Positions 16,561 through 32,683 are shown, numbered from the stretch's first letter. The stretch is 64,000 nt of DNA from Candidatus Palauibacter sp. (GCF_965213655.1 NZ_CBDBZT010000003.1:1927733-1991732); one strand, 5' to 3'. Program-made: numbers and translations. Notes: generated from the sequence alone by a model not told the origin.

Positions 16561-16750
16561 GGCGATCGACCTTCTTCCGATTGATACCTGGATGAACCGG
16601 ACCGCCAAGATGCTTGTTGTCGCAGGGCCCGGCCACGGTCGTTCGCGGGCGGTGGCAACCGCCTGCTTGTGGACACCACAGGATGAGGATTATGGTATGT
16701 ATGACACTAGATACCACATACGACAGAATCACCATTTCAGGAATCGTGCC

Positions 16751-17489: not shown

Positions 17490-18647
17490 CTACCTGTCGG
17501 TTTCGACGAGTTCGTAGAGGGCCACGGCGGGGACGCCGAACGCGTCGCGTTGCCGGACGAGCACCCAGTCCCGGCCGGCGTCGAGCAGGACAAAGCCGCC
17601 GGGCATCGTGAGGCGCCGCAGCCACACGCCGTCCCGGTCCAGGAGGTGCAGTTTCTCGCCGGGCGCCCGCCAGCGGTACGTCCTGATCCATATGCCCCCG
17701 TCCGGCAGGGCGAGGAGGGATTCGTAGGCGGGGAAGCGCTCGGGTAGGTACGCCCGCCTCTCCGGCCAGACCTCGCGCTCGAAGCGGCGGCGGCCCTCCC
17801 TGTCGGAATACCGGTCCAGACCCGAGAGGTAGTCCCGGTACCTGTCGACCTGCTGGTCGGTGACGGCGAGGTCCGGGCCGAGCCAGCGAGCGGTGCGGGT
17901 GACCCGGCCTGTCCAGTCCAGATGCTGCAGTTCGTAGTCGTCGGATGTACCGAACCATACGCCCGTGTCCACGGCTGCCAAGACCATGCTTCGTCCCCAG
18001 TAGCTCGGCATGACGCTGCCGCGGGAAATGCGGGTCCGCTCTGCGCCCGGAATCCCGGACTGCAGGACGGTCACGCTGTCGGTCACGGCAACCCTCAGAG
18101 ACACGCGCCAGCGCCACTGCTCGCCCACGGTCCGCTCCAAGACGCTTCGCCGATCCTCCGGCCACGGCGTGAAGACGAGGCGACCATCGGTTGAGCAGGC
18201 GGGTTCCCCGTACGGATTCACGCCGATGGAGTTGAGCGTGCGCGTGTCGACGACGTTGCCGTCGAGATCCAGTTGGGTGATGCGGTCCTGGACCCAGTCG
18301 AAGACGGTGACCGCCGCACCGGGGCAATTCCGCAGGAGGCGCAGGCCCCGGTATTCTCCGGGCCCGTCCCCTTCCCTCCCGTTCGTCCACAGGTGTCGTC
18401 CGTTCGCGTCGTATCGGCGCACGTTGTCGCTCTGCTCGTCCACGACGACGAAGCTGCCGTCGTCCAGACGAATGGCGCCCGTCACGTCGCCGAAGATGTA
18501 CTCGAGCGGACCATCGAGCGCGCCGATGCGGACCAGCGGCTTCTCGGCCAGCGTCAGATCGGGGTCGCGCGCTTCGGCGCTCTCTACGACATCCTGCGCC
18601 CCAATGGACGCGGCCGCGAAAGCTGCGAGAGTGAGCGTCGAGATCAT
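17490..18647 (-). CDS. secreted NHL-repeat 6-bladed beta-propeller protein, paralog 1
   Basis: Real start at ATG 18647 (MISTLTLAAFAAASIGAQD signal). The track's 18965 start adds an S/R/P-rich artefact. About 70% identical to the 26868-28052 product (PLVRIG.DGPLEYIFG.VTG..RL.DGS.VV.DEQS.N.RRYDANGRHLWT.GR.G.GPGEY.GLRLLRNCPGA...). Confidence 0.75.
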   Translation of the reverse strand: MISTLTLAAFAAASIGAQDVVESAEARDPDLTLAEKPLVRIGALDGPLEYIFGDVTGAIRLDDGSFVVVDEQSDNVRRYDANGRHLWTNGREGDGPGEYRGLRLLRNCPGAAVTVFDWVQDRITQLDLDGNVVDTRTLNSIGVNPYGEPACSTDGRLVFTPWPEDRRSVLERTVGEQWRWRVSLRVAVTDSVTVLQSGIPGAERTRISRGSVMPSYWGRSMVLAAVDTGVWFGTSDDYELQHLDWTGRVTRTARWLGPDLAVTDQQVDRYRDYLSGLDRYSDREGRRRFEREVWPERRAYLPERFPAYESLLALPDGGIWIRTYRWRAPGEKLHLLDRDGVWLRRLTMPGGFVLLDAGRDWVLVRQRDAFGVPAVALYELVETDR

Positions 18648-18675
18648 CGGCCGTGGATCACCGCAGTCGCCGCAG

Positions 18676-20697
18676 TCAAGACGAAGCCGGCGCGTCGGCC
18701 GTAGTGCGCAGGGCGTCGACGCGGCGGGCGACGCCTTCTTCGTAGCCGGATTCCTCGAAGCCTTCGCGCTTGAACTGGATGAACCCCGCTTGATCCAGGT
18801 AGAACGTCGTCGGATAGCCGAGGATCTCGTAGTCGAGGGCGAGCCCCTGCTCGTCGAACAGGACGGGGAACGTGAAGCCGCCCTCCTCGATCTGCCGCGC
18901 GACCTCTTCGCGGGGAGATCCGGCCGTGGCGACGGTGAGGAACACGACATCCTCGTCGTCTTCATACGTTTTCAGGAGTTCGACGAAATGTGGGAACTCC
19001 AGGAGGCACGGACCGCACCAGGTCGCCCAGAACTTGAGCACGACGATCTTCCCCTCGAGGTCGCTCAGCCGCCACTCGATTCCGGTCTGGTCCGTGAGCA
19101 CGAACGCCGGGGCCTCGCGCTCGAGTCGATCGCCCAGTTCGCGCCGCTCCATCTCCTCCTCGACGACGGGGCGCCGTACGGCGAGCCGCTCCTCGACGGT
19201 TTCGGGAGACAGATCAGCGGCTGCGGCGGCTTCTTCCGCGAGGGGCTCAAACCGGGAACCGCCGAAGGCGATCGCCTCCACGAAGGCGTCGAGCGCTTCC
19301 ACCGGCCGGTCCGTGCGGAGGAGATGACGCCCGTACTCCCCAAGCGTGGTCTCACGTCTGGACTCGGTCGCCACCTGCTCGAACAGTTCGCCCGCCGCTT
19401 CGATCTCGCCGAGTTGCGTGAGGGCGCGGGCCTGGAGGATGCGGGCCCTGTCGATCAGGATCTGCCGCGACCGCTCGCGCTCGTCGCCGCGGACGCCGGG
19501 GTACAGGTATCCCGGGCTGTGTGCGCGCAAGTCTCCCTCGATCGCGGTCGCCGCATCGAGCACGGCCCGCGGCTCGATCCCGAAGTAGAGCAGGCCGCGG
19601 AGTGCGGAAAACACACCCTCACGCCAGCGGACCACGGCCATCGAGGCATCGAGCAGCTGCTCGGCCGCCTCCGGGTCGAGCGGCGCATGCGGTGGTTCTG
19701 CCGCGACGGTCGCCGCCCCCCACACCGTCCTGCTGCTCGGCGCATCACCGGCGATTGAAGCGAGCACACGCTGCGTCACAACCGTGTGGTGCCGGTCTAC
19801 CCACGCGCCGCGGCGCCCGAGATCCCGTGACTTCAACCCCTCGGCGGCGAGGCGCCCCATGTCGACCGTACTGTCCGCATGGCCGAGCCGGGCCATATTG
19901 AAGTCCACGGTCAGATCCCAGTACCGCAGGTCATCCGCCAACACACCCCGGTCGGGCGCCGCCTCGAGTCGTTCCAGCCAGCGGTCCGCGTCGCCTTCCC
20001 GCCGGAGGATCCCGAAGTCGTCGTATCCCGCCGCGAGCCGGTACAGGACCGGGGCCGCAACGTCCGCATCGTCTTCGGCCCGGGCCGCGATCGCGTCGAG
20101 CGCCCCCGCGATGGAATCCCTCACGACCTGTGCCCGTTCGCCCTCCTCCCTATCGGCGAGCGCGGCACGGAGCGCATCGGCGGCGTGGAGCAGGATCTGG
20201 TCATCCGGCCGCAGCGCCCGTACCTTGGCGAGGATCGCGCCGTACGCGTCGAGCTGTCCGAGGTCCTCCGCCGCGTCCTGTGCTTCGCTGTAGATGACGG
20301 GCCGGGCCGGCGCGTGGCGGAGTGCCTCCGGGAGGACCTGGAGGATTCTTTCTCCGTACCTCCGGTCGGTCTCGAAGATGCCGGCCCAGCGAAGATCGTG
20401 GATGTAGCCTTCCCAGGCAGCGGAATCGCCGGGTTCCAGTTCGAGCACGCGCCGCCAGGCCCGCACGGCGGCCGCATGCAGGCTGAAATAGCTGGCGAGC
20501 GTGGCGTACTGCCGGTGCGCCTCGGCGTCGTCGGGCGATGCGGCGCGCGCCGAGTCGTAGCGGGCCATGGCGCGCTCGAACTCGACGGCTTCCGCATCGG
20601 CGGCCGCGTCGGCCATCAGTTCGGCGTGCGAGCGGGCGTCGCCACAACCCGCGAGGACCGATAGACACACCCCCGTGAGGATCAGATGCCGCCTCAT
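18676..20697 (-). CDS. lipoprotein with an N-terminal TPR-like helical domain and a C-terminal TlpA/thioredoxin-fold thiol-disulfide oxidoreductase domain
   Basis: Start ATG 20697 (MRRHLILTGVCLSVLAGCGD lipobox). The C-terminal KIVVLKFWATWCGPCLLEFPHF carries the thioredoxin CxxC motif. It lies 28 nt upstream of the paralog-1 propeller, co-directional. Confidence 0.8.
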   Translation of the reverse strand: MRRHLILTGVCLSVLAGCGDARSHAELMADAAADAEAVEFERAMARYDSARAASPDDAEAHRQYATLASYFSLHAAAVRAWRRVLELEPGDSAAWEGYIHDLRWAGIFETDRRYGERILQVLPEALRHAPARPVIYSEAQDAAEDLGQLDAYGAILAKVRALRPDDQILLHAADALRAALADREEGERAQVVRDSIAGALDAIAARAEDDADVAAPVLYRLAAGYDDFGILRREGDADRWLERLEAAPDRGVLADDLRYWDLTVDFNMARLGHADSTVDMGRLAAEGLKSRDLGRRGAWVDRHHTVVTQRVLASIAGDAPSSRTVWGAATVAAEPPHAPLDPEAAEQLLDASMAVVRWREGVFSALRGLLYFGIEPRAVLDAATAIEGDLRAHSPGYLYPGVRGDERERSRQILIDRARILQARALTQLGEIEAAGELFEQVATESRRETTLGEYGRHLLRTDRPVEALDAFVEAIAFGGSRFEPLAEEAAAAADLSPETVEERLAVRRPVVEEEMERRELGDRLEREAPAFVLTDQTGIEWRLSDLEGKIVVLKFWATWCGPCLLEFPHFVELLKTYEDDEDVVFLTVATAGSPREEVARQIEEGGFTFPVLFDEQGLALDYEILGYPTTFYLDQAGFIQFKREGFEESGYEEGVARRVDALRTTADAPASS

Positions 20698-20767
20698 GGA
20701 ATTCGCGCCTGTGGACGTCGAGTTGCCAGACGCGAGCGATGCCGGGATGAATCGCACGAACCGGTGA

Positions 20768-21364
20768 TCACGTCTGGTCAATTCTAGGTGTCACGATCAG
20801 GATGAGCACGGGTTCCCCCGCGGAGCGGCGAGCCGATCCCAACACCACTCTCTGACCATCGCGGATCGTGACCGATGCTTCGAGCAGGGGCCCCGACAGA
20901 TCCATCAGGACGCCCCCCCACTCACGCCCCTCATACCTCCGGGAGCCGGAGGTCCCCTCGGTGAGGGTCACCTTGGCACGTACGTGCCTCTCGTACCGGC
21001 GTGTGGTAACCTCGGCGTGGATCGTCAGGGGTGTCTCCGAATCATCAGCGAAGACTCTCTGGGACCCGGTGCCGCCAAAGGCGACGTTCGAGGTCCGGGC
21101 CAGGCCGACATTCAGCATCGAGGTCGACAGGAGCCGGTATCCCTCGAAGTTGAACAGCTTCCTGAGTTCGCTCACGACGTCGCTGATCTCGGGGTCGTCA
21201 TCGGTGAAGCCGTCCGCCTCGACCAGGTGAAAGAAGAGCTGCACGTTCCGGACGGGCTCCACGGGCTCCTCCGACTCCTGCGCGCTTACGACGCCCGGAA
21301 GCGTGCCGAGGGCCAGCGCCAGGATCAAAGCGCATCGGATACTCCTTCTCGCATTCTCGATCAT
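20768..21364 (-). CDS. secreted hypothetical protein
   Basis: 198 aa with signal peptide MIENARRSIRCALILALALGTLPGVVSAQ and a GGAGGAGAG SD. Its ATG overlaps the stop of the upstream anti-sigma-like gene (TGATG arrangement on the - strand). Confidence 0.55.
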   Translation of the reverse strand: MIENARRSIRCALILALALGTLPGVVSAQESEEPVEPVRNVQLFFHLVEADGFTDDDPEISDVVSELRKLFNFEGYRLLSTSMLNVGLARTSNVAFGGTGSQRVFADDSETPLTIHAEVTTRRYERHVRAKVTLTEGTSGSRRYEGREWGGVLMDLSGPLLEASVTIRDGQRVVLGSARRSAGEPVLILIVTPRIDQT

Positions 21365-21729
21365 CAGTCACTCTCCTCCGGGCTGAGCAGCCATACGACG
21401 GCGATGTCGGGATCATTCGTGGGGAAGACCACGAACGGCCTGTCGGCCTCCACATCCATTTCGCTCACCATGCTGCGTGGAGGGGACGCAGGGGGGGGGC
21501 CGACTTCTTCGATAGCTCCGTTGGGCAACAGGATCAGGGCCGCCATGACGGCGGCCGCCGCGAGCGGGCCCACGGTCCACCGGCGCCACACGAGTCGCCG
21601 CTGCACGGGCGTGGCATGCTCGGGGGCTATGGCAGGCAGGCCTTCGCTGAGCTGGTTTGCCAGCGCCGACAGGACGGCGTGCATGTTCCGTGCGTCCCGT
21701 GCGATGCGCTCGGCGTCTCGTTCAGCCAT
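21364..21729 (-). CDS. putative anti-sigma factor (small single-pass membrane protein)
   Basis: 121 aa with one TM helix (WTVGPLAAAAVMAALILL). It overlaps the 3' end of the ECF sigma gene by 8 nt, the classic sigma/anti-sigma arrangement. No Zn-binding HxxxCxxC motif is seen. Confidence 0.5.
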   Translation of the reverse strand: MAERDAERIARDARNMHAVLSALANQLSEGLPAIAPEHATPVQRRLVWRRWTVGPLAAAAVMAALILLPNGAIEEVGPPPASPPRSMVSEMDVEADRPFVVFPTNDPDIAVVWLLSPEESD

Positions 21730-22309
21730 CGGTCCCCCTGGTGTCCGTCTCCGTGGGTCGCGCCAACATCTTTTTCCGCATCCTGCGCCGCGCGCGAAGC
21801 AGGTGTACGCGCAGCGTGTTCGGGTTCATCCCCAGCAGCCTCGCCGCTTCCGCGGGTCTCAGTCCCTGCAGATCCACCAGATCGAAGACCTCCCGCTGCC
21901 TCATGGACAGTCCGCCCAGCAGCGACCGAATCAATCGCATGGTTCTCTTCATCTCGATGTCATCGAGCGGATCCTCCAGTAGCGGCGCCTGGACCTCCGC
22001 CATCCACTCCGCCCTCTCGGCCAACCGCCGGTCCCGCCGCTTGCTTCGCCGGAGGTCCAGGCTGGCGTTCCGAGTAATCCGGTAGACCCAGCTCGTCACC
22101 CTGGCGCGACCATCGAAGCTCCCGATCGATCTCAGCGTCTTCATCAGGACGAGCTGCGCGATGTCCTCCGCATCATCCGGATCGCCGGTCATGACCAGGG
22201 CCCACCGGCACACGAGGGGACGGAGAGCACCCACCAGCCTATCGAGCGCCCCTCGCTCTCCCTTCCCGGCCTTTTCGGCCAACTCCAGGATCTCTCGGTC
22301 GGAGAGCAT
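21722..22309 (-). CDS. ECF (sigma-70 family group 4) RNA polymerase sigma factor
   Basis: Region 2 (DAEDIAQLVLMKTLRSIGSFDGRARVTSWVYRITRN) and region 4 HTH (LSMRQREVFDLVDLQGLRPAEAARLLGMNPNTLRVHLLRARRRMRK). ATG 22309. Confidence 0.85.
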   Translation of the reverse strand: MLSDREILELAEKAGKGERGALDRLVGALRPLVCRWALVMTGDPDDAEDIAQLVLMKTLRSIGSFDGRARVTSWVYRITRNASLDLRRSKRRDRRLAERAEWMAEVQAPLLEDPLDDIEMKRTMRLIRSLLGGLSMRQREVFDLVDLQGLRPAEAARLLGMNPNTLRVHLLRARRRMRKKMLARPTETDTRGTDG

Positions 22310-22444
22310 GGGGCGCTCGGTCCCTTTTCTTCTCGTGTGGTTTCGAGAGGTGAAACGCCGGCAGAGGGAGGAGCGTTTACCCGGCGTGCCGTCGCAAGAG
22401 CTGTTCCTCGCCCGCCGAGGGGTGGCGTGGCGCGCTGAGCCCGT

Positions 22445-25400
22445 CTAACGCCGTTCGGGCGGCGGCTCGGGGAGACCGCGGCTGAAGAGGACCTCGAGGT
22501 TCGGCGGCAGAGGCAGTGCGCCGGGTTCGCCCGCGGCGGCGGCCAGCGCGGAGGCCCGGTCCAGCAGGATGGCCCGCACGCGGCCGCTGGCGGGATCGCG
22601 CAGGATCGCGGAGGGGCGATCCGTCGTTCGGTCGAGGGCCGCCGATCCCGTCGGACCCGTGAGTTCGATTGCGTCGAGGAGGCCGGCCCATTCGGGACGA
22701 TAGGGGACGCCGAACACGAAGCCCGCCCGGCCTTCCCGATCCGCCACGGGCGTCATCGCGAAGCTGATCGAGAACAGGATCTCGCCGTTGCCCGTCCGCC
22801 CGACGAGCCGACTTGGACCCGCAGAGTCCGGGAGCGCCGGGGGCGCTTCGATGGCGAAGGCGGGGCGCAGATAGGGCGTGCCGTCCACCTCCGTGCCGCC
22901 CCACAGGAGGAGCGTGGGCTCCGGCGACGCCGCGCGATCCGCCGCCGCTTCGCTGGCCAGGCGGTAGCGGAGCGCACCCGAAAAATGGTACTCGCTGATC
23001 CAGTTCGGATCACAGTAGGACATCAGATCCGACACCGTCGGCGGTATCAGGACCTCCTGGCCGGAACGGGAGTCGAGGCCCCACGCACCGATGGCTCCGC
23101 CACGGTGGGGGTAAGCGGGATCCACCGCGGCTCGGACACCGCAGGGGGCATGCCAAAGCCGCATGTTGTGGCCGAGTTCGTGCGCCACCGTTCTCACCAC
23201 ATCCGGTCCGCCTCCGGCGAGTCGGACATAGCTCGTCCGGCCGGGGATCCAGGCCACGCCCCAGGCGCCCGTGGCTTCCCCGGAGAGCACTGCCATCCAA
23301 TAGCCGGTCCCACCCTCCATGTAACGGACGACACCCACCTCATCGAGGAGACTGTCCGAATCGTTGCTGGTGGTCCACACGGGCCCATGAGCCTGTACGG
23401 ACAGGTCACCGACCGGCATGAGGTTGTGAAGCTCCCCGAGCAGCTCGTGGCCCTCGGGATCCGCCGCCATCTCCGCGGCGGTCCTCACTGCCGCGGAATC
23501 CGGACCGCTCCGCCAGAGGAATGGCACCACGGTCAGATTGAAGGGCGGCATCGCCCGAACCGGCACGGCCCTCCGGCCCGACTCGGGAATCCGAGTCGAC
23601 ACACCAAGACCGGGATCCAGCGTCCCGGCCGGATCGATTTCGACCACCATCTCGAGGCCGGGCCGGATCACCTCGCCCGGAATCCACACGTTGGCGGAAC
23701 GGTCCAGCGCACGCTCCGCATCGGCGATTCGGGTCGGCATGGGTGTCGACTGTCCCGGGACGTCGACCGTGTAGATCTCACCGCCACCGACGAAGAAGGT
23801 CGCCCGGGCCGGAGGGATCGGCTCGCCGGTGCTCTCCTCTGTTGTGACGAAGATGCGCAGGAGCGCCGTCTCGCCGGCAATGAGCGACACAGGGAAGTCC
23901 CGCGACTGCACCGCCTGAGTCAGGTACGCCCCGGAACCGGCGTCCGCTACCGACTCGCATGGGGGCAGGCGCACGAGGCCCGACCACTCCGGGTCGACGG
24001 CTCCGCCTGCCACGCACAAGCCGGTCCCCCTCCCTTCGAACCGCGACAGCGCCGGGAGTTCCCTGAGACTCGGCGGCAATGGGCCGGTCAGTCCTGCATT
24101 GCCCGCCAGATCCAGCCAATCGAGGCGTGTCATCGCGCCGAGTTCGGGAGGCACCGGCCCCTGGAGATGGTTGTGACCAAGCAGCAGTGTCTCCAGACTC
24201 CGGAGGTTCCCCAACTCGGCCGGAATCGGACCCGAGAGACTGTTGAGCCTCAGGTTGAGTTCACCATCCATGGGGTAGGCTCCACGCGCGCCGAGCGCGC
24301 CAAGTTCGGGGGGGATCGGCCCGGCCAGTTCGTTGCCGTCAAGGGCCAAACCCCGAATGCTCCTGAGGGAGCCAAGCTCGGGGGGGATCTCTCCGGACAG
24401 ATGGTTGAATCCCAGGTACAGGGTCTCGACGGAGGGCAGGTCCGCGAGCTCCGGCGGTATCTGACCTTCCAGCTCGTTGTTGTCCAGCCATATGACGATC
24501 ACTTCCGACAGGTTCGCCAACTCCGGCGGGATCGGTCCAGTCAGCCGGTTATTGCTGAGCAGCAGTTCCTCGAGTGTCGACAGGTTCCCCAGTTCGGGGG
24601 GGATCGGGCCACTCAGCCGGTTTGAGTCAAGATGCAGGTTCGTCAACGCCGGAAAGGCGCCCAACTCGGGCGGTATCGGACCGGAAAGCTGGTTGTCCCT
24701 GAAGTTGAACCACTCGAGCCCCTCAAGCTCGATCAGCGCGGGAGGGATCCCGCCTGTCAGCCAGTTGTGGGGCAGTTCCAGGCTCCGGAGCGCGGCGAAC
24801 TGACTAAGCTCCGCTGGTATGGGGCCGCGCAGGTTGTTCGACGGGAGACTCAGCCACGCCACATTCCCATCAGCGTCCGTCTCAACGCCGTACCAGTCCC
24901 CCAGCGGCGCGTCGCTCAGCCAGTTGTCGCGCCTCTCCCAGCGCTCTCCTTCCGTCGCCTCGTACAACAGGCCGAGAATCTCGCGATCCGTGAGACGCGG
25001 ACATTGCTCATCCGTTCCCGACCTGACGGGTATCGCCTCCAGCCAGGCTCGGAAGTGTGGTGACGGCGGCACGCAGAGTTCCGTACCCCCGTAGCGAAAC
25101 TCCTCCAGCGCGAGCGAGGACAGAGCCTGAGGGATCGAGCCCTCCAGGGCATTCCCTCCGAGTCGAAGCACGGTCATTTGCTGCAGCAGTGTGATCACGA
25201 GCGGAATGCGTCCCGTCAGCCCATTACGCGACAGATCGAGGCTGCTGACGCGTCCGAGCGAGTCGGCGCCGATGCCGTGCCATTCTTCCAGTGCTTCGTC
25301 GCTCTGCCAGCCGGTGGACCGGACCCAGATCGCTCCGTCCATGGCTTCGAACAGGCCCGCGAGGGTGGATCGATCCGCTTCGTTACAGCGGGGCCCCACC

Positions 25401-26719
25401 GCATCTCTCTGGCGCAGCCACCGCTCGAAGCTCGTCGTCCCCGGAGCACAGAGACCGCCGGCTCCCGCCCATCTGAAGCTGTCAAGGTTCGTGAGATCGA
25501 CGAATGAGGACGGGATCGCTCCAGTCAACGCGTTCTCGTCCAAGAACAGCCGTTCAAGCATGCGGAGGCCGGAAAGGTCGGCCGGAACCGGGCCACTCAG
25601 TTTGTTGCGGAACAGGTTGAGGAAACTCAACTCGGACAGGGCCCCCAACTCCGGCGGGATCGGACCGCTGAGTTGGTTCGACTCGAAGCTTATTCTGCGC
25701 AGATTGACGAGCCTGCCCAGCGTCGGCGGGATCGGACCGGTAAGCTCGTTCCATCCGAGATCGAGGTTGCCGAGACGGGCCGCATTCCCGATTTCGGGCG
25801 GGAGCGGTCCCGAGATGCCGTTCCGGTAGAGGTTCAACTCTTCCAGGTGTGACAGGTCTCCGACTTCCGTGGGGAGAGTACCGATCAGGTTGTTCTCGGG
25901 CAGGTGCAGGCTCGTCACCCTTCCGCCCGCGTCCGTCTTCACGCCATGCCATTGCCCCAGCGGCTCGTCGCTCAGCCAGCCGTCGCGATTCCTCCAGCCG
26001 GGACCGCCGGCTGATCGATACAGCGCGTTGAGGGCGGCCCGCTCCGGGTCCGGGTCCGGGACGTTGATCGCAGAGGTCCCGGTGATCGGACCGGACTGGG
26101 CGGTGATGGTCGCCATGCCCTCGGCGAGCCCCCGCACCAGCCCACCGTCGTCGACGGTCGCGACTGTGGGGTCGCTCGAACTCCACGCGAAGACCGTGCC
26201 CGACACCGGATGGCCGTTTGCGTCCCGCGCCTCCGCCGACAGCCGCGCCGTGTCGCCAATGGCGAGTGTGGCTGCCGATGGCGTGATCCCCACCCAAGCC
26301 ACGGACGGCCGCACCGACACGCGGGCCGTCCCCGTCACGGATCGGGCCTGCGCCGTGACCTCCGCAGTACCCGCGCCGGTCGCCGTCACGAGGCCAGCCG
26401 GGTCCACCGCCACCACCGACGTGTCACCGCTCGACCAGGACACCGCGGCGCCCGTTATCACCTGGCCCGTCTGGTCGCGCACCTCCGCCCCCAATCGCAG
26501 GGTGCCTCCCAAGGCGCTCATTTCGGCCGGGGCCGGGGTCACGGTCACCGAGGTCGGTTGCGGCGAGGGGGTCGGCGGCGGCGGAGGAGGGGTCGGCGCC
26601 GTCGAAGCGTCTCCGCAGGAGAGGCCGGCAACGAGCCCGAACAACAGGATGGTCCGGTCTCGCCGCCGGATCAGGGCACCGCCACCCTGCGATGTGTCGC
26701 CCAATAGTTGTGTCGCCAT
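22445..26719 (-). CDS. giant surface lipoprotein: 2x Big_2 Ig-like domains, 3x (plant-type LRRNT-like cap + plant-specific LRRs + Cys-pair C-cap) modules, C-terminal metzincin-type Zn-metallopeptidase domain
   Basis: I place the start at ATG 26719 (…IRRRDRTILLFGLVAGLSCGD lipobox). The upstream codons of the track ORF from 26761 fall in an AT-rich non-coding-looking patch. Pro-rich linker and Big_2-like blocks (VTAQARSVTGTARVSV, ATITAQSGPITGTSAINV). Dozens of LxxLxLxxNxLSGPIPPELGNL repeats. Three caps of the form ...W..D.WLSDEPLGQWHGV.TD..GRVTSL.L..NNL.G.IP. HELGHNMRLWH (HExxHxxxxxH) plus the Met-turn-like SDLMSY. Confidence 0.85.
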   Translation of the reverse strand: MATQLLGDTSQGGGALIRRRDRTILLFGLVAGLSCGDASTAPTPPPPPPTPSPQPTSVTVTPAPAEMSALGGTLRLGAEVRDQTGQVITGAAVSWSSGDTSVVAVDPAGLVTATGAGTAEVTAQARSVTGTARVSVRPSVAWVGITPSAATLAIGDTARLSAEARDANGHPVSGTVFAWSSSDPTVATVDDGGLVRGLAEGMATITAQSGPITGTSAINVPDPDPERAALNALYRSAGGPGWRNRDGWLSDEPLGQWHGVKTDAGGRVTSLHLPENNLIGTLPTEVGDLSHLEELNLYRNGISGPLPPEIGNAARLGNLDLGWNELTGPIPPTLGRLVNLRRISFESNQLSGPIPPELGALSELSFLNLFRNKLSGPVPADLSGLRMLERLFLDENALTGAIPSSFVDLTNLDSFRWAGAGGLCAPGTTSFERWLRQRDAVGPRCNEADRSTLAGLFEAMDGAIWVRSTGWQSDEALEEWHGIGADSLGRVSSLDLSRNGLTGRIPLVITLLQQMTVLRLGGNALEGSIPQALSSLALEEFRYGGTELCVPPSPHFRAWLEAIPVRSGTDEQCPRLTDREILGLLYEATEGERWERRDNWLSDAPLGDWYGVETDADGNVAWLSLPSNNLRGPIPAELSQFAALRSLELPHNWLTGGIPPALIELEGLEWFNFRDNQLSGPIPPELGAFPALTNLHLDSNRLSGPIPPELGNLSTLEELLLSNNRLTGPIPPELANLSEVIVIWLDNNELEGQIPPELADLPSVETLYLGFNHLSGEIPPELGSLRSIRGLALDGNELAGPIPPELGALGARGAYPMDGELNLRLNSLSGPIPAELGNLRSLETLLLGHNHLQGPVPPELGAMTRLDWLDLAGNAGLTGPLPPSLRELPALSRFEGRGTGLCVAGGAVDPEWSGLVRLPPCESVADAGSGAYLTQAVQSRDFPVSLIAGETALLRIFVTTEESTGEPIPPARATFFVGGGEIYTVDVPGQSTPMPTRIADAERALDRSANVWIPGEVIRPGLEMVVEIDPAGTLDPGLGVSTRIPESGRRAVPVRAMPPFNLTVVPFLWRSGPDSAAVRTAAEMAADPEGHELLGELHNLMPVGDLSVQAHGPVWTTSNDSDSLLDEVGVVRYMEGGTGYWMAVLSGEATGAWGVAWIPGRTSYVRLAGGGPDVVRTVAHELGHNMRLWHAPCGVRAAVDPAYPHRGGAIGAWGLDSRSGQEVLIPPTVSDLMSYCDPNWISEYHFSGALRYRLASEAAADRAASPEPTLLLWGGTEVDGTPYLRPAFAIEAPPALPDSAGPSRLVGRTGNGEILFSISFAMTPVADREGRAGFVFGVPYRPEWAGLLDAIELTGPTGSAALDRTTDRPSAILRDPASGRVRAILLDRASALAAAAGEPGALPLPPNLEVLFSRGLPEPPPERR

Positions 26720-26760
26720 ATATATATGTAAGATATATAAGCAGCTATGGAATCGGGGCA
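26717..26760 (-). promoter_or_regulatory. AT-rich island (catatatatatgtaagatatataagcagctatgg) immediately upstream of the giant lipoprotein start; promoter / 5' leader candidate
   Basis: A conspicuous AT-rich run in a very GC-rich genome. Codons through it (tta tat atc tta cat ata tat) are atypical for this genome's coding regions. Confidence 0.35.
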
Positions 26761-26867
26761 AGCGACGGAGCAGGTGGCAACAGTGGGTGGCGCGCCGTCG
26801 GATGGATCGGTGGAGTCGCCGGAGGAGCGAACCAGAGACGTGGAGCTACGGCAGCACTACGTCACCG

Positions 26868-28052
26868 TCAGTTCGCGACCAGTCCGTAGAGGGCGACGGT
26901 CGGAACGCCCAGTTCGTCGCGCTGGCGCAGGAGGACCCAGTCCCGCCCCGCGTCGAGGACGACGCCGCTCGGCAGCGTGAGGCGGCGAAGCCATACGCCG
27001 TTCGCGTCCAGAAGATGCAGCTCCTCGCCCGCAGCCAGCCAGGCGTGGGTCTTGACCCAGAAGGCGCCGTCCGGCAGTGGGATAAGAGCCTCGTACGCCG
27101 GGAAGCGCTCCGGAAGCTGATCCCGGATGTCGGGCCAGACGTCCCGCTCGAAGTTCCGCCGGGCTTCGTCCTCGTCGTACCGCGCCAGCCACCCTTCCCG
27201 ATAGCTGTCGACGCGGTCGCCCGTCACCGTGAGGTCGGGACCGCCCCAGCGGGCCACCCGCGTCACCCGACCCGTCCAGTCCAGGTGCTCGAGTTCGTAG
27301 TCATCGGCCGTCCCGTACCACACGCCGGTGCCGGCAGGCGCGAACTCCATGTCACGCCCCCACCAGCGCGGACCGCTGGCCCCGGCCTGGATGAAGAACC
27401 GTTCGGCGCCCGGGATCCCCGAGCGGAGGGTGACGACGCTATCCCTCTCGAAGGATTCGAGGACCGTTTGCCACCGGTAGAGGTCCCCCTCGGCCAGGTC
27501 TTCCTCGTAGCTCGCACCCATGTCGTCGGGCCACGGCGTGTAGACCAGGCGGCCGTCAGGCGCACAGAAGGGGTCGTTGTAAGGGCGGACGCCGGCTGCA
27601 AGGAGCGAGCGCGTCGCGAGTACGTTGCCATCGAGATCCAGCTCGGTGATGCGGTCGAGACTCCAGTCGAAGACGGTGAGCGGTGCCCCGGGGCAGTTCC
27701 TGAGCAGCCGCAGCCCCTTGTACTCCCCCGGCCCCTCGCCCGATCGCCCGCTGGTCCACAGGTGACGACCGTTCGCGTCGTAACGGCGGAGGTTGCCGCT
27801 CTGCTCGTCCGCGACGACGACGCTTCCGTCCTCGAGACGAACCCCACCCGTCACGTTGCCGAAGATGTATTCGAGCGGACCGTCGACGATCCCGATCCGC
27901 ACCAGCGGCTCGTCGGCCAGCGTCAGGTCGGCGTCACGCGGGGCTGCGCTCTCAACGACCTCCTGGCCGGCGAGCGCCTGCGGCGCCATGAGAATCGAAA
28001 CGGTGAGCAGTAGTACGGCGCCGCCTGGCAGGCCGAACCTGGGTCGGTGCAT
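26868..28052 (-). CDS. secreted NHL-repeat 6-bladed beta-propeller protein, paralog 2
   Basis: 394 aa with signal peptide MHRPRFGLPGGAVLLLTVSILMAPQALAGQ and SGEGPGEY NHL motifs. Close paralog of the 17490-18647 product. Confidence 0.8.
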   Translation of the reverse strand: MHRPRFGLPGGAVLLLTVSILMAPQALAGQEVVESAAPRDADLTLADEPLVRIGIVDGPLEYIFGNVTGGVRLEDGSVVVADEQSGNLRRYDANGRHLWTSGRSGEGPGEYKGLRLLRNCPGAPLTVFDWSLDRITELDLDGNVLATRSLLAAGVRPYNDPFCAPDGRLVYTPWPDDMGASYEEDLAEGDLYRWQTVLESFERDSVVTLRSGIPGAERFFIQAGASGPRWWGRDMEFAPAGTGVWYGTADDYELEHLDWTGRVTRVARWGGPDLTVTGDRVDSYREGWLARYDEDEARRNFERDVWPDIRDQLPERFPAYEALIPLPDGAFWVKTHAWLAAGEELHLLDANGVWLRRLTLPSGVVLDAGRDWVLLRQRDELGVPTVALYGLVAN

Positions 28053-28232
28053 TTGCGCCCCGCGGGGGAGGTGTGGACAGGGAACATCGATCTCGGACTG
28101 GGGACACAGGTTCGACGCGAGAGAGTTGCGTCGCGTTTACGTCATCTGCCACGAGGCTCGATCCATCGTTCACGCAATACGAAAGTCGTATGATTGGGAC
28201 AGACTACACGTTACCCATGGTACCGAGGTTCA

Positions 28233-30471
28233 GATGCGTTCCCTTTCCGTCGCCCTCGTTCTTCCCGCCGCAGTGCTCGCGCTGCCCCCGCAGATGCCGC
28301 TCGCCGCGCAGGAGCGGCCATTCACGTTCATGGATGTGCAGGAGATGAAACGCGCCGGCTCATGGACGCCGAGTCCGGACGGCGCGTGGATGCTCTACAC
28401 CGTGACGACCCCCGACTGGGAGGCGGCCGAGTCCCAGACGGACATCCACCTCGTGTCGCTGAGCGAGGGCGTCCCGTCGGATCGCCGGCTCACCTACACC
28501 GAGGACAAGGACGAACGCAGCCCGACCTGGGGTCCGGACGGGTCGTTTTTCCTCTTCGCCTCCAACCGGGATGGGGACGACACCCAGCTCTACATGATGC
28601 GCCACGACGGGGGCGAGGCCCGGAAGATCACCGACGCGGAGGAAGGCGTGTCCGGCTTCGCGTTCAGCCCCGACGGGCGCTGGCTCGTGTATCGCTCCGG
28701 GGAATCCAACCGGGAGCAACTCTACCGGCTGCCGGCCGACGACCTCGCGGACGCCGAGCCCGAACAGATCACCGACGGCGAGGCGGGCGTGGACCAGTGG
28801 GACTTCTCCCCTGACGGAAGCCGCGTCTACTTCGCGCGCCCCGATTCGTTCGACGAGGACGAGGTGAAGCGGCGCGAGGAGGGCTTCACGGTCGACGTCC
28901 GGAACGCGGTCACCCCGCTCTCGAGCCTGTGGAGCGTCGAGGTCGAGTCGGCCGCCGAGGAGCGCGAGACCGACGACCCCTCCTACAGCGTGAACAGCTT
29001 CACGATCTCCGACGACGGACGCTGGATCGGGATCACGGGCGGCTCGACGAAGCGCTACGAGCGCAACATCACTGCGCAGCGGCTCTATGCGGACCTCCAC
29101 CTCATGGAAGTGGCGACGGGCGAGATCGAGCGCTTGACCGACAACTACGAGGTCGGCGAGGGCGGACTCAGCTTCTCCCCGGATGGCCGCTGGATCGCTT
29201 TCTCCGCGCCGGACGAGATGGAGCGCTACTCGATGACGGAGAACCGCATCTACATCCGCGAGCTCGGGGACCGCGGGGGGGCGTTCCGGAAGCTGGGCGC
29301 GGAGTTCGACCAGAGTTCGAGCGTCGGGTTCTGGTCGGAGGATGCGAACACGATCTACTTCAACGCCGGCGTGAAGGTAACGACGCAGTTGCACGCCCTC
29401 GACGTGGAGACCGGCGCGGTGCGGCAGCTCACCGACGAGCTCGCGGCGCTCTCGGTGTCCCGGAATGACGACACGGGCACGCTTCTCATCAACTACAGCG
29501 ACCCGAAGACGCCGCCCACCGTATTCGCCGTCGCGAGCGTGGACGATGTCCCGGACCGCTCGAAGTGGACACAACTCGTCGACGTGAACCCCCAACTGCG
29601 CGAGGTGGCGTTCGGCGAGGAGGCGGAGGTCAACTGGCGTTCGTCCGATGGGAAGATGGTCGGAGGCGTTCTCGTCTATCCCGTGGACTACGAGGAGGGG
29701 ACGCGCTATCCGCTCATCGTCGCGATCCACGGGGGGCCGGCGTCGGCCGACATCCTGCGCTTCAACGGCGGGTACAGCGCGCAGGTGTACGCGGGGGCGG
29801 GCTACGCCGTGCTCAAGCCCAACTACCGCGGCTCGCGGAACTACGGGAACGCGCACCGCACGGACATCGTCGGCGACTACTTCACGATGGGCTACGAGGA
29901 CATCATCACGGGCGTGGACCACCTGATCGCCGAGGGCATCGTGGACGGCGACCGCATGGGCGCGCTCGGCTGGAGTGCGGGCGGCCACTGGTCCAACTGG
30001 ATCCTCACGCAGACGGACCGCTTCAAGGCGATCAGTTCGGGCGCCGGGACGATGAACTGGATCAGCATGTACGCGCAGAGTGATGTGCAGCGTAACCGGC
30101 AGTTCTACGTGGGCGACGGCTTCCTGTACGAGGACTTCGACACGTACTTCGACCAGTCCCCGCTCAAGTACATCGCGAACGCGAAGACGCCGACGATGAT
30201 CCACGTGGTGGAGGGCGACCCGCGCGTGCCGAGCCCGCAGTCGGTTGAACTCCACATGGCGCTCAAGAAGCTGGGCGTCCCGACGGAACTGTTCATGTAT
30301 CCCGGCCGGAGCCACGGCATCCCCGACCCGCGCAACCGGCTTGTGAAGGCGGTGAGCGAGATGGCCTGGATGGATTACTACGTGCGCGGCATGGGAGAGA
30401 AGTTCCAGTGGCGACAGGTGCTCGAAACGCTTGAGGCCGAGGAGGCCCCGACGGTCGTCTCGGAGCGTTAG
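28233..30471 (+). CDS. secreted S9-family serine peptidase (prolyl oligopeptidase / acylaminoacyl-peptidase-like, TolB-type propeller N-domain)
   Basis: Start ATG 28233 (MRSLSVALVLPAAVLALPPQMPLAAQE signal). The track start 27793 is an antisense artefact. Repeated FSPDG propeller blades. C-terminal hydrolase domain with GWSAGG (GxSxG) and the ...D...H tail. Confidence 0.85.
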
Positions 30472-30482
30472 CCGGAGCTCCA

Positions 30483-31571
30483 ATGAAGGGGAAACCGCGC
30501 CGTTTGGTCTGGCGGGCGGCCCGGACTGCGGCCGCGGTCGCGCTCGTCGTGGTGCCCTTCGGTTACGCGATCACCGAGGTCCACCGCGATGTCTGGATGG
30601 GAGCGGGCTGCGGGCTCGCCATCGGCGTGGGCATCGGCCTCCGGGGAGGCCCGCAAGCCGGTTCGTGGATGGGTATCCTCATTGGTTCGATGGTCGGGAT
30701 CTCCACCGCCTTGATTGCCGGCGCCACGCCCTGGAACAGCGTTAGCCTTCTCGTCGCACCGAACCTGGCACTGGCGGTCGGCATGCATGACGGGCTCCGC
30801 GAGACCTCCTTCTCCCGGTATCGGGGCATGAGCCGGGAGACAGTCATCCTGTCTGTCCTCATCGGCTTGGGGCTTTCCCCCGCCTGGGTCGCGTCGGACA
30901 GCCTGCGCTTCGTTCTGGTTCCACTCCTCTGCACGCCCTGGATCGCGCTGATGGCGGGGCTCCTCAGCCACCGCCGGGAGGGCTGGCAGGACACCCGTCC
31001 TCCCTGGCTCCTCGTCGTGAGTGCGGCACTGTCGTTTGCGCTCTTGCTCTTTCTGATTGTGCAAGGGCAGGCGGTATGGCTCTCGACCCCATGGACGGTT
31101 CCGGCTCTGCAATACGCCGGCCTCAGGGCGCTCGTGCTGGTTACGGCTCCCGCCGCCGCGTTCCTGCTGGGGCGCGTCGCCATCACGTGGCTGCAGCCGC
31201 GCCTTGGCGTGTACGGCCGGCTTGCCGACTACCTGCGCATCATGTGGGTGCCCATCGGAGGGTTCGCCGTCGGCTACCTGATGATCATCGTGCTGTTCGC
31301 GGGGTTCTACGGAATGCTCGAGCGTTTCAGCCCCGGCGCCTTCGCCGACGCCGCCGTCGGCATCAAGGAGTGGCTCTTCTTCGCGTTCTTCACCGGCCTC
31401 GCCCAGGATTACGCGACGACGGCCCCGGTCTCTGACGGCGCGCGCTTGCTGGTCGGTACCCACCTGATCCTCTCGGCGGGGTGGGTCGTGGTACTGTTTG
31501 CGGCGGTGATGTCATTCGTGGGCCCGAAGCTCAATCGGATCGCCAGACGCCACGCGGAGGAGGAACCATGA
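30483..31571 (+). CDS. polytopic membrane protein with a C-terminal K-channel-like pore module (Ion_trans_2-like) carrying DYA in place of GYG; copy A
   Basis: 362 aa with about 8 N-terminal TM segments. Then TM (VPIGGFAVGYLMIIVLFAGFYGML), pore-helix/filter WLFFAFFTGLAQDYATTAPVSDGARLL, and TM (VGTHLILSAGWVVVLFAAVMSFV). This aligns well to the 2TM K-channel consensus YFSFVTLTTVGYGDIVPVTDGGRLF. It starts 12 nt after the S9 peptidase stop. Confidence 0.75.
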   Translation: MKGKPRRLVWRAARTAAAVALVVVPFGYAITEVHRDVWMGAGCGLAIGVGIGLRGGPQAGSWMGILIGSMVGISTALIAGATPWNSVSLLVAPNLALAVGMHDGLRETSFSRYRGMSRETVILSVLIGLGLSPAWVASDSLRFVLVPLLCTPWIALMAGLLSHRREGWQDTRPPWLLVVSAALSFALLLFLIVQGQAVWLSTPWTVPALQYAGLRALVLVTAPAAAFLLGRVAITWLQPRLGVYGRLADYLRIMWVPIGGFAVGYLMIIVLFAGFYGMLERFSPGAFADAAVGIKEWLFFAFFTGLAQDYATTAPVSDGARLLVGTHLILSAGWVVVLFAAVMSFVGPKLNRIARRHAEEEP

Positions 31572-32664: not shown

Positions 32665-32683
32665 CCACCGTGAGGCGGAACCC

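What the first reader, a model, noticed from the sequence alone, without database searches (positions are those of the whole stretch)
22445..26719. Giant bacterial lipoprotein built from plant-receptor-type LRR modules and ending in a metzincin protease
The 1400+ aa product has a lipobox, a Pro-rich stalk and two Big_2-like Ig domains. It then has three modules that each look like a plant LRR receptor ectodomain. Each module has an LRRNT_2-like cap (…W..D.WLSDEPLGQWHGV.TD..GRVTSL.L..NNL.G.IP, compare plant …SW…CSWxGVTCD..GRVTSLDLS.NNLSG.IP). Each has runs of plant-specific LRRs (LxxLxLxxNxLSGPIPPELGNL). Each ends with a Cys-pair C-cap (GGLCAPGTT…CNE, ELCVPPSP…CP, GLCVAGG…CE). The C-terminus carries HELGHNMRLWH plus a Met-turn-like LMSY, i.e. 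a metzincin-type zinc protease. A eukaryote-like ligand-recognition ectodomain is here fused to a protease on a bacterial surface lipoprotein. The gene sits between a propeller paralog and an ECF sigma/anti-sigma pair. It looks like either a horizontally acquired or convergent receptor-protease, possibly feeding a cell-surface signalling route.
Basis: partly seen in the sequence, partly recalled or inferred. Interest (0 to 1): 0.75.

Follow-up and report, generated by a model that had tools for sequence, protein, structure and literature searches.

The report
LRR-guided surface metalloprotease, large bacterial family
This is a real 1424-residue gene for a probably lipid-anchored bacterial zinc protease that carries three plant-receptor-like leucine-rich-repeat binding modules. 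It is one ordinary member of a very large, uncharacterised family found in genomes assembled from marine and sponge samples, not a plant-derived receptor or a signalling device.

Summary
Window 22445..26719 (-) encodes a 1424-aa protein with this layout:
- a lipobox signal, a Pro-rich linker and two Big_2 domains;
- three capped LRR modules built from 24-residue plant-specific-type repeats, each closed by a Cys pair;
- a C-terminal unit of beta-sandwich, metzincin catalytic domain (HELGHNMRLWH, DLMSYC) and beta-sandwich.

The N-caps do not match Pfam LRRNT_2 or any PDB sequence. However, a high-confidence model of module 2 matches only plant LRR ectodomains among the best 50 Foldseek hits. The catalytic domain is metzincin-fold and M66 (StcE/TagA)-like, but scores just under the Pfam cut-off.

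- The protease unit defines a family of at least 7067 cluster representatives. They occur in Gemmatimonadota (including sponge-derived Ca. Palauibacter), Acidobacteriota, Latescibacterota and other phyla, often in several or tandem copies, with 0-9 LRR modules.
- A syntenic ortholog (73% identity) exists in a Ca. Palauibacter genome.
- There is no sign of recent plant transfer.
- The ECF sigma neighbour is found only next to that ortholog, not in 80 other family loci.

Best reading: an LRR-targeted cell-envelope metalloprotease whose substrate is unknown. Interest is moderate to low.

The parts
26615..26719 (-). Signal peptide with lipobox (aa 1-35; LVAGLS|C, Cys35 as the predicted lipidated residue)
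   Evidence: Sequence. The stretch LIRRRDRxILLFGLVAGLSCGD is conserved in the L004 ortholog. 74 of 149 family representatives have a lipobox in the first 60 aa. Lipidation itself was not tested.
26540..26614 (-). Pro-rich linker (aa 36-60; APTPPPPPPTPSPQPT)
   Evidence: Direct reading of the translation.
26045..26539 (-). Two Big_2 Ig-like domains (aa 61-225)
   Evidence: Pfam PF02368, E 1.1e-16, two stretches. The ortholog in L004 has about four more copies.
25379..26044 (-). LRR module 1 (aa 226-447): Cys-free N-cap, six 24-residue plant-specific-type LRRs, C-cap with Cys424/Cys445
   Evidence: The best PDB sequence matches are plant LRR-RLK ectodomains.
24995..25378 (-). LRR module 2 (aa 448-575): N-cap, 2-3 LRRs, C-cap with Cys549/Cys573
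   Evidence: AF2 model pLDDT 94.8. The top 50 Foldseek PDB hits are all plant LRR ectodomains, TMq up to 0.73. The 126-aa module type recurs in homologs.
23954..24994 (-). LRR module 3 (aa 576-922): N-cap, about 11 LRRs, C-cap with Cys902/Cys921
   Evidence: Homologs are 35-55% identical and, where a source names them, bacterial MAG proteins apart from one Ectocarpus entry. The DNA shows a 72-nt periodicity at 65-82% identity.
23543..23953 (-). Pre-catalytic beta-sandwich domain (aa 923-1059)
22934..23542 (-). Metzincin-fold, M66-like catalytic domain (aa 1060-1262)
23150..23182 (-). Zinc-binding and catalytic motif HELGHNMRLWH (aa 1180-1190)
   Evidence: H, H and H are invariant and E is conserved in at least 90% of A1. 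133 of 149 representatives keep HExxHxxxxxH. Position 8 is usually S, N or G, and is R here and in the ortholog.
23012..23029 (-). Met-turn candidate DLMSYC (aa 1231-1236), 43 residues after the third His
   Evidence: D, M, Y and C are invariant in A1. Cys1236 and Cys1193 are both invariant, so a disulfide is inferred but was not checked.
22448..22933 (-). C-terminal beta-sandwich domain (aa 1263-1424) with the conserved tail LEVLFSRGLPxxxxxRR
   Evidence: AF2 model. The tail motif is present in 90 of 149 representatives, and 68 of them end exactly 7 residues after it.

Best explanation
The gene encodes a secreted, probably lipid-anchored, modular zinc metalloendopeptidase.

Proposed mechanism:
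- A lipoprotein signal tethers the protein to a membrane of the cell envelope.
- The Pro-rich linker and the Big_2 domains act as a stalk.
- The three capped LRR solenoids are binding modules that capture a protein or glycoprotein target.
- The C-terminal unit (beta-sandwich, M66-like metzincin, beta-sandwich) cleaves that target.

The protein is one paralog-type member of a very large, lineage-expanded family in Gemmatimonadota (Palauibacter/Longimicrobiales) and in other phyla represented by MAGs. Across the family the protease unit is constant, while the number and length of the LRR cassettes (in steps of 24 residues) and of the Big_2 domains vary.

Shown here: domain composition, predicted folds, conservation of the catalytic residues, purifying selection, and family size and distribution.

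Inferred: lipidation, surface exposure, catalytic activity, that the LRRs confer substrate or target specificity, and that targets are extracellular proteins of a host (for example a sponge) or of the environment.
For: - Architecture and motifs.
- Catalytic residues: the H-E-H-H motif and the Met-turn are invariant or near-invariant across 30 homologs and kept in 133 of 149 representatives.
- M66 link: all 30 homologs match PF10462. hhalign against StcE aligns HELGHNMSLxH/HEVGHNYGLGH and WGxD (E 5.7e-4, probability 29.5%). The shared layout H..GHN..L.H, WG.D, (F/L)IP, D.M is visible in both sequences.
- LRR class and fold.
- Family size: 7067 cluster representatives at E<=1e-3 and 1785 at E<=1e-30, mostly 800-2750 aa with the unit at the extreme C-terminus.
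- Distribution: at least 502 relatives in species-representative genomes of several phyla, with multiple loci per genome. 16 of 82 loci hold 2-3 tandem copies.
- Modularity: 0-9 caps per protein and module lengths quantised by 24 aa.
- The gene is functional, not decaying: dN/dS against the 73%-identical syntenic ortholog is 0.34-0.52 in every domain from Big_2 to the C-terminus.
Against: - No experiment exists on any family member that I could find.
- This protein scores below the Pfam M66 gathering threshold (18.6 against 20.6 bits).
- It has Arg where metzincins have Gly in HExxHxxGxxH.
- The loop after the zinc motif is modelled with low confidence.
- In diderm bacteria a lipobox does not by itself imply surface exposure, so the protein could face the periplasm.
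- No conserved gene neighbour points to a substrate or export route.
Confidence: 0.6

Rival explanations
1. One reading: a sensor. The LRR ectodomain detects a ligand and the protease relays the signal to the adjacent ECF sigma/anti-sigma pair, for example by cleaving the anti-sigma factor (cell-surface signalling).
For: - The ECF sigma (21722-22309) and a 121-aa single-TM ORF (21364-21729) lie directly downstream on the same strand.
- The same arrangement is kept in the ortholog locus L004.
- The 135-bp spacer is 84% conserved.
Against: - Among 81 other family loci (±6 kb) a sigma-like gene is found only in the one syntenic ortholog, even at E<=0.1. The two loci inspected through their gene tables also lack it.
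- The spacer carries its own ECF-type promoter-like motif, GTAAACGC-N-CGT, which suggests the sigma gene is transcribed separately.
- Synteny between two closely related species is not evidence of functional coupling.
Confidence: 0.05
2. The LRR modules were recently acquired from a plant or alga by horizontal transfer and fused to a bacterial protease.
For: - The best solved-structure matches by sequence and by predicted fold are all plant LRR ectodomains.
- The codon usage of the gene is the second most deviant of 32 genes in the window.
- A brown-alga (Ectocarpus) protein carries the same Cys-free cap plus plant-specific-type LRRs at 48% identity.
Against: - GC3 is 0.80, within the bacterial host range, and the same mild deviation is shared with the neighbouring genes at 18676-22309.
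- The three modules are only 35-44% identical to each other, and the DNA repeats are 65-82% identical, so they are old.
- The top 120 homologs of module 3 are, where a source names them, bacterial MAG proteins apart from the one Ectocarpus entry. The module is combined there with Big_2, fn3, trypsin, PD40, SLH and T9SS domains.
- The caps lack the plant Cys pair and match neither Pfam LRRNT_2 nor any PDB sequence.
- The family spans several phyla with thousands of members.
- An ancient exchange of this module type between bacteria and eukaryotes, in either direction, is not excluded.
Confidence: 0.03
3. The protein is mainly an adhesin. The LRR and Big_2 parts mediate attachment to host or particle surfaces, and the metzincin-like domain is catalytically dead or merely structural.
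For: - Arg replaces the canonical Gly in the zinc motif, and the M66 score is sub-threshold.
- LRR plus Big_2 surface adhesins are a known bacterial kind (my own knowledge, for example BspA-type proteins).
- 14 of 149 representatives lack the full HExxHxxxxxH pattern.
Against: - All three His, the Glu and the Met-turn are conserved in this protein, in its ortholog and in 133 of 149 representatives.
- The catalytic domain is the most conserved part against the ortholog: 84% identity, dN 0.089.
- Some family members consist of a lipobox plus the protease unit alone, with no LRR, for example P0035.
Confidence: 0.1

Closest known systems
StcE/TagA peptidases (MEROPS/Pfam family M66; E. coli O157 pO157 tagA/stcE, Vibrio cholerae TagA)
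   Same: - Shared motif layout H-E-x-G-H-N-x-x-L-x-H, then WGxD, (F/L)IP and DxM.
- Ig-like or beta-sandwich accessory domains.
- The pO157 gene is annotated as a lipoprotein.
- NCBI names some close homologs 'M66 family metalloprotease'.
   Different: - StcE has no LRR modules.
- Here position 8 of the zinc motif is R (S, N or G in the family) rather than G.
- The segment between the zinc motif and the Met-turn is much shorter.
- This protein falls below the Pfam cut-off (18.6 against 20.6 bits), and hhalign gives only 29.5% probability.
- Mucinase activity is untested.
Plant LRR receptor kinase / receptor-like protein ectodomains (e.g. BAK1/SERK, BIR, FLS2, GSO1, TDR)
   Same: - The same 24-residue plant-specific LRR consensus, LxxLxLxxNxLxGxIPxxLGxLxx.
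- Top sequence matches in the PDB.
- Module 2 is predicted to have an N-terminal helix cap, a solenoid and a Cys-pair C-cap, and its top 50 fold matches are all plant ectodomains.
- The W-x-G-V ... G-x-V-x-x-L-x-L junction aligns in register with plant N-termini.
   Different: - The N-cap has no Cys pair and no detectable sequence similarity to LRRNT_2.
- Several independently capped modules sit in tandem in one chain.
- There is no transmembrane helix or kinase.
- The host is bacterial and the modules are fused to a protease.
Adamalysin/ADAM-type modular metzincins (M12B)
   Same: - Best fold matches of the catalytic domain.
- The same logic of a membrane-tethered metzincin combined with non-catalytic binding domains.
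   Different: - The similarity is in fold only, with borderline local sequence matches around HExxH.
- The domain order and the type of binding domain differ.
- No prodomain with a cysteine switch was recognised.
Bacterial proteins with plant-like LRRs (Xanthomonas XopL/XopAE/XopAC effectors) and other bacterial LRR surface proteins
   Same: - NCBIfam models for XopAE, XopAC and XopL match the LRR regions.
- They show that plant-type LRRs in bacteria are not new.
   Different: - The scores are far below those families' cut-offs (104 against 600 bits and similar).
- Those proteins are type III effectors without a lipobox, capped tandem modules or a protease.

Membership tests
Peptidase family M66 (Pfam PF10462; StcE/TagA) | Score at or above the Pfam gathering threshold | tested here: not met
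   This protein scores 18.6 bits against a cut-off of 20.6, and only profile positions 194-238 of 306 are matched. All 30 aligned homologs match at E<=0.01, best 6.2e-8, so the family sits at the edge of M66.
Peptidase family M66 (Pfam PF10462; StcE/TagA) | Detectable homology to StcE itself | tested here: inconclusive
   [not shown]
Peptidase family M66 (Pfam PF10462; StcE/TagA) | Mucin/O-glycoprotein-selective proteolysis | not testable with these tools
   This needs enzymology.
Metzincin clan of zinc endopeptidases | Extended zinc motif HExxHxxGxxH/D with three metal ligands and a catalytic Glu | tested here: met
   HELGHNMRLWH at aa 1180-1190. The His residues are invariant and Glu is conserved in at least 90% of 30 homologs. 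Deviation: Gly is replaced by Arg here, and by S, N or G across the family.
Metzincin clan of zinc endopeptidases | Conserved Met-turn downstream of the third His | tested here: inconclusive
   An invariant D-x-M-x-Y-C lies 43 residues after His1190.
Metzincin clan of zinc endopeptidases | Metzincin catalytic fold | tested here: met
   [not shown]
Plant-specific (PS) class of leucine-rich repeats | 24-residue repeat with consensus LxxLxLxxNxL(s/t)GxIPxxLGxLxx | tested here: met
   Fourteen clean units give LxxLxLxxNxLxGPIPPELGxLxx at a spacing of exactly 24 residues. The best PDB matches are plant LRR-RLKs.
LRRNT_2 (Pfam PF08263) plant N-terminal cap | Match to the Pfam model and the conserved Cys pair (CxWxGVxC) | tested here: not met
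   No hit at E<=10 on the three isolated caps or at E<=1 on the full protein. The caps contain no Cys. Only the predicted fold and the WxGV junction resemble the plant cap.
Bacterial lipoproteins | Signal peptide ending in a lipobox with an invariant Cys | tested here: met
   LFGLVAGLS|C fits the PROSITE-type pattern used, and it is conserved in the ortholog. Lipidation and final localisation are not testable here.
Big_2 (PF02368) bacterial Ig-like domains | Pfam match above threshold | tested here: met
   61 bits against a cut-off of 22.8, two stretches.
ECF sigma-based cell-surface signalling module | Conserved genomic linkage of the sensor gene with the sigma/anti-sigma pair across the family | tested here: not met
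   A sigma homolog lies next to a family gene only in the syntenic ortholog L004, out of 81 other loci.

The most novel reading that the evidence does not exclude
The family may be a diversified repertoire of 'recognition-coupled proteases'. In this reading, interchangeable capped plant-type LRR cassettes act as specificity determinants that direct a constant M66-like metzincin to particular host surface or matrix (glyco)proteins. The family shows 0-9 cassettes per protein, lengths quantised by 24 residues, multiple and tandem copies per genome, and a faster-evolving LRR half. Sponge- and other host-associated bacteria could use such proteins to shape their niche or escape host uptake. The Cys-free capped LRR module would be shared with stramenopile algae through an ancient inter-domain exchange.
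Probability: 0.2. Interest if true: 0.6.

Novelty: new variant of a known kind. Interest (0 to 1): 0.35.

Why it matters
If the reading is right, many bacteria known from marine and sponge metagenomes carry dozens of surface proteases whose targets are chosen by plant-receptor-like LRR cassettes. That would give a concrete, testable molecular handle on how such symbionts interact with host proteins. It would also provide a natural set of modular LRR binders fused to an enzyme.

For this particular gene the result is mostly clarifying. It is an ordinary member of a large uncharacterised family. It is neither a unique plant-derived receptor nor part of a signalling pathway.

Tried and rejected
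- Exact-sequence look-up of the product found no record.
- A cap-only profile against the PDB found nothing, and Pfam on the isolated caps found only LRR models.
- A neighbour census by tblastn over 82 loci found no conserved partner. The sigma, anti-sigma and 198-aa genes occur only in the ortholog. S9/DPP-IV peptidases and a TonB receptor are sporadic. Homologs of the 394-aa neighbour occur in 7 of 82 loci.
- A second copy of the ECF-type promoter-like motif lies upstream of the 394-aa gene. I rejected it as evidence because it is not conserved in L004 and 9% of shuffles give at least two matches.
- The promoter/terminator scan gave nothing useful.
- Seven literature searches found no description of an LRR-M66 fusion, or of this family in Palauibacterales. 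They returned only general statements that LRRs are 'eukaryotic-like proteins' in sponge-associated MAGs.
- DNA repeats inside the gene show only old 72-nt periodicity and no recent duplication.
- The first 60 residues in the dN/dS table were misaligned by the global alignment and are disregarded.

Full report

Yes. The longest ORF in the region is 22445..26761 on the minus strand. From the ATG at 26719 it encodes 1424 residues.

Read directly from the translation, the N-terminal part contains:
- MATQLL...RRRDRTILLFGLVAGLSC, a basic n-region, a hydrophobic core and a lipobox with Cys35.
- APTPPPPPPTPSPQPT, a Pro-rich linker.
- Two Big_2 domains (Pfam E 1.1e-16).

Three modules follow, at aa 225-445, 448-573 and 577-921. 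Each has three parts:
- It opens with a cap of the form xDRxxLxxLYxxxxGxxWxxxxxWLSDxPLxxWxGV.
- It continues with 24-residue repeats. Fourteen clean units give the consensus LxxLxLxxNxLxGPIPPELGxLxx at a spacing of exactly 24.
- It closes with a Cys pair: 424/445, 549/573 and 902/921.

HELGHNMRLWH lies at aa 1180-1190 and DLMSYC at aa 1231-1236.

The LRR Pfam models are matched at E down to 4e-43. The best matches among solved structures are plant LRR receptor kinases: GSO1 at 1.8e-129, then FLS2, ERL2, MIK2 and PEPR1. So the repeats do belong to the plant-specific LRR class rather than to the usual bacterial classes.

**2. The caps**

Pfam LRRNT_2 is not matched by the full protein, nor by the three isolated caps at E<=10. 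A 60-sequence profile of the cap alone finds nothing in the PDB sequence set at E<=10, although that set holds dozens of plant ectodomains. The caps contain no cysteine. HMMER alignments to plant receptors begin only near the W-x-G-V junction, for example QWHGVKTDAGGRVTSLHL against NWTGITCDSTGHVVSVSL of FLS2.

Structure prediction gives a different picture. A model of the whole short module 2, built on a 17-sequence alignment, has pLDDT 94.8. All 50 best Foldseek hits in the PDB are plant LRR ectodomains: TDR, HSL1, BAK1/SERK, BIR2/3, PSKR, FLS2, TMK and PGIP. Their TM-scores (query-normalised) reach 0.73 over about 125 of 126 columns.

The fair statement is therefore that each module is shaped like a small plant LRR ectodomain and uses the plant repeat class, but its N-cap is a distinct, cysteine-free type and not a member of LRRNT_2.

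**3. The C-terminal 500 residues**

This part is not simply 'a protease at the end'. A model built on 30 homologs has pLDDT 78 and pTM 0.80. It has three parts: a beta-sandwich (aa ~930-1055), an alpha/beta catalytic domain (aa ~1060-1262) and a second beta-sandwich (aa ~1263-1415).

Foldseek finds ADAM-8.

At the sequence level the only Pfam family that comes close is Peptidase_M66. This protein scores 18.6 bits against a cut-off of 20.6, over a local match around the zinc site. All 30 aligned homologs match it, best at 6e-8. NCBI names some close homologs 'M66 family metalloprotease'.

I fetched stcE/tagA from pO157. hhalign of the family alignment against it gives E 5.7e-4 but only 29.5% probability. 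The shared layout H-E-x-G-H-N-x-x-L-x-H, WGxD, (F/L)IP and DxM is visible in both sequences.

In the family alignment the three His, the D-x-M-x-Y-C motif and two Cys are invariant, and the catalytic Glu is conserved in at least 90% of sequences. Position 8 of the zinc motif is Gly in classical metzincins. Across the family it is S, N or G. Here and in the ortholog it is Arg.

I therefore call the domain a divergent, M66-like metzincin. Its fold and motif are met. Its formal M66 membership is borderline.

**4. How unusual is the architecture?**

It is not unusual in metagenomic data. Searching with the C-terminal unit gave hundreds of close homologs, most of them carrying LRR Pfam domains.

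An exhaustive profile search of 1.84 billion cluster representatives gave 7067 hits at E<=1e-3 and 1785 at E<=1e-30. The best 150 are mostly 800-2750 aa long, with the unit at the extreme C-terminus. I examined 149 of them:
- 74 have a lipobox.
- 129 have at least one capped LRR module; 40 have exactly three, and the maximum is nine.
- 133 keep HExxHxxxxxH.

Module lengths in the family fall on a ladder with 24-residue steps: 126, 150, 174, 198, 222 and so on.

In species-representative genomes at least 502 relatives were confirmed. The best 80 are all MAGs:
- Gemmatimonadota, namely Longimicrobiales and Candidatus Palauibacter, including the sponge-named species irciniicola and ramosifaciens
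- Acidobacteriota
- Latescibacterota
- Rhodothermales
- Gammaproteobacteria

Some genomes contribute three or four loci to the top 80. 16 of 82 loci carry two or three copies within ±6 kb.

The LRR module type is also common outside the protease family. The 120 best homologs of module 3 are, where a source names them, bacterial MAG proteins apart from one Ectocarpus entry. They combine the module with Big_2, fn3, trypsin, PD40, SLH or T9SS-type domains, and 113 of the 120 carry the same cap. The Ectocarpus (brown alga) protein has the same Cys-free cap, plant-specific-type LRRs and C-terminal membrane segments.

**5. Source and orthology**

The closest locus, L004 (NZ_OZ250143.1, Candidatus Palauibacter sp.), is syntenic. 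It holds, in order, the 394-aa gene, the LRR-protease, the ECF sigma, the anti-sigma candidate and the 198-aa gene.

The ortholog is 1763 aa and 73% identical over aa 53-1424. The extra length is about four additional Big_2 domains.

dN/dS is 0.34-0.52 in every domain from Big_2 to the C-terminus, so the whole protein is under purifying selection. The LRR half has diverged more (68% identity) than the catalytic domain (84%).

The window therefore most likely comes from a Palauibacter-like member of the Gemmatimonadota. The rest of the window is ordinary chromosomal content.

**6. Horizontal transfer**

GC3 of the gene is 0.80 and is similar in all of its domains. Other genes in the window have GC3 of 0.80-0.94.

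By RSCU distance the gene is the second most deviant of 32 genes in the window. Its neighbours at 18676-22309 are deviant too. That is a mild, block-wide signal, and the block is syntenic in the sister species.

The three modules are 35-44% identical to each other. The 72-nt DNA repeats are 65-82% identical. Nothing suggests a recent acquisition from a plant. An ancient exchange of this module type between bacteria and eukaryotes, in either direction, remains open.

**7. Signalling**

The ECF sigma (21722-22309) is real. A 121-aa single-TM ORF overlapping its end (21364-21729) is a plausible anti-sigma factor.

Among 81 other family loci, a sigma homolog is found only in the syntenic ortholog, even at E<=0.1. 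The two loci inspected through their gene tables also lack one.

The 135-bp spacer between the protease gene and the sigma gene is 84% conserved. It contains an ECF-type promoter-like motif, GTAAACGCTCC-N-CGT, which suggests separate transcription. A second copy of the motif lies upstream of the 394-aa gene (28115-28140). It is not conserved in L004 and is within chance expectation.

I find no support for a receptor-to-sigma route.

**8. Most likely mechanism**

My best reading is a membrane-tethered, stalked protease whose LRR solenoids capture a protein or glycoprotein target and present it to the M66-like metzincin.

Shown: the parts, their predicted folds, the conserved catalytic residues and selection on all domains.

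Inferred: lipidation, outward exposure, activity, and LRR-determined specificity.

The substrate is unknown. Two things make host or environmental extracellular (glyco)proteins the natural guess, but it is only a guess:
- The M66 relatives StcE and TagA are mucin-type glycoprotein proteases (my own knowledge).
- Many family members come from MAGs whose names indicate sponge sources, where LRR proteins are routinely listed as 'eukaryotic-like proteins' (PMC12993501).

Palauibacterales are reported from marine sediments, sponges, corals and saline soils (PMC10469786). A purely nutritional role in protein scavenging is therefore equally possible.

**9. Novelty and score**

Plant-type LRRs in bacteria, LRR proteins in sponge-associated MAGs, and lipoprotein M66 metzincins are each known. 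The fusion, the cysteine-free capped cassette and the size of the family appear to be undescribed in the literature I could search.

This gene is a typical member, not a singular invention. I rate it as a new variant of a known kind, with interest 0.35.

Noticed in passing
[not shown]
   Followed up: partly
window 26868-28052 (-) and 17490-18965 (-): The 394-aa secreted-looking protein upstream of the gene has a 65%-identical paralog 8 kb away. Weaker homologs lie next to family genes in 7 of 82 loci. It has no Pfam match; only the paralog gives a faint DUF5128 beta-propeller hit at E 0.15. Its function is unknown, and it is the only recurrent, though weak, neighbour.
   Followed up: partly
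window 22355-22380 (-) and 28115-28140 (-); L004 7575-7600: An ECF-type promoter-like motif, GTAAACGC-N15-17-CGT, lies upstream of the ECF sigma gene and is conserved in the ortholog locus. A second copy lies 63 bp upstream of the 394-aa gene. That copy is not conserved in L004, and 9% of shuffles give at least two matches.
   Followed up: yes
window 18676-26719: The LRR-protease gene, the ECF sigma, the 198-aa gene and the 701-aa AhpC/TSA-domain gene have the most deviant codon usage in the window and the lowest GC3, 0.80-0.83. The 701-aa gene is absent from the syntenic position in L004, so there is an indel between the two species.
   Followed up: partly
window 22448-26539 compared with L004 2218-7506: Synonymous divergence from the ortholog differs between the two halves of the gene: dS is 0.43-0.56 in the Big_2 and LRR half and 0.23-0.29 in the protease unit. 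This could reflect recombination or gene conversion with paralogs. The number of Big_2 domains also differs, 2 against about 6.
   Followed up: no
protein P0342 (Ectocarpus sp.): A brown-alga protein carries the same cysteine-free N-cap (TDREALVALYGVTGGANWTNNENW...LSQWHGV), plant-specific-type LRRs (48% identity to module 3) and C-terminal membrane segments. Either this capped module type is shared between bacteria and stramenopiles, or the entry is a contaminant.
   Followed up: partly
window 30483-33778 (+): A small cluster of paralogous genes without any Pfam match. The 362-aa and 364-aa products are 52% identical, and fragments at 31574-32158 and 32155-32664 are up to 68% identical to their C-terminal parts.
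   Followed up: no
window 14179-16608 (-) and ~28099-30471 (+): Two S9-family serine peptidases flank the region, one DPP-IV-like and one with PD40 repeats. An S9/PD40 peptidase also lies next to the homolog in L001, but the association is sporadic across loci.
   Followed up: yes
window 45464-47926 (-): One 820-aa ORF combines outer-membrane efflux protein (OEP) repeats with a DUF1028 domain. It could be a true fusion or two genes merged by the ORF listing.
   Followed up: no
L003 4316-8067: In the genome carrying homolog P0002, a 543-aa LRR-only gene directly precedes the 688-aa LRR-protease gene, which itself starts inside an LRR. Many database members begin mid-repeat. N-terminal truncation or split gene calls therefore seem common and may deflate the apparent sizes and lipobox counts.
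   Followed up: no
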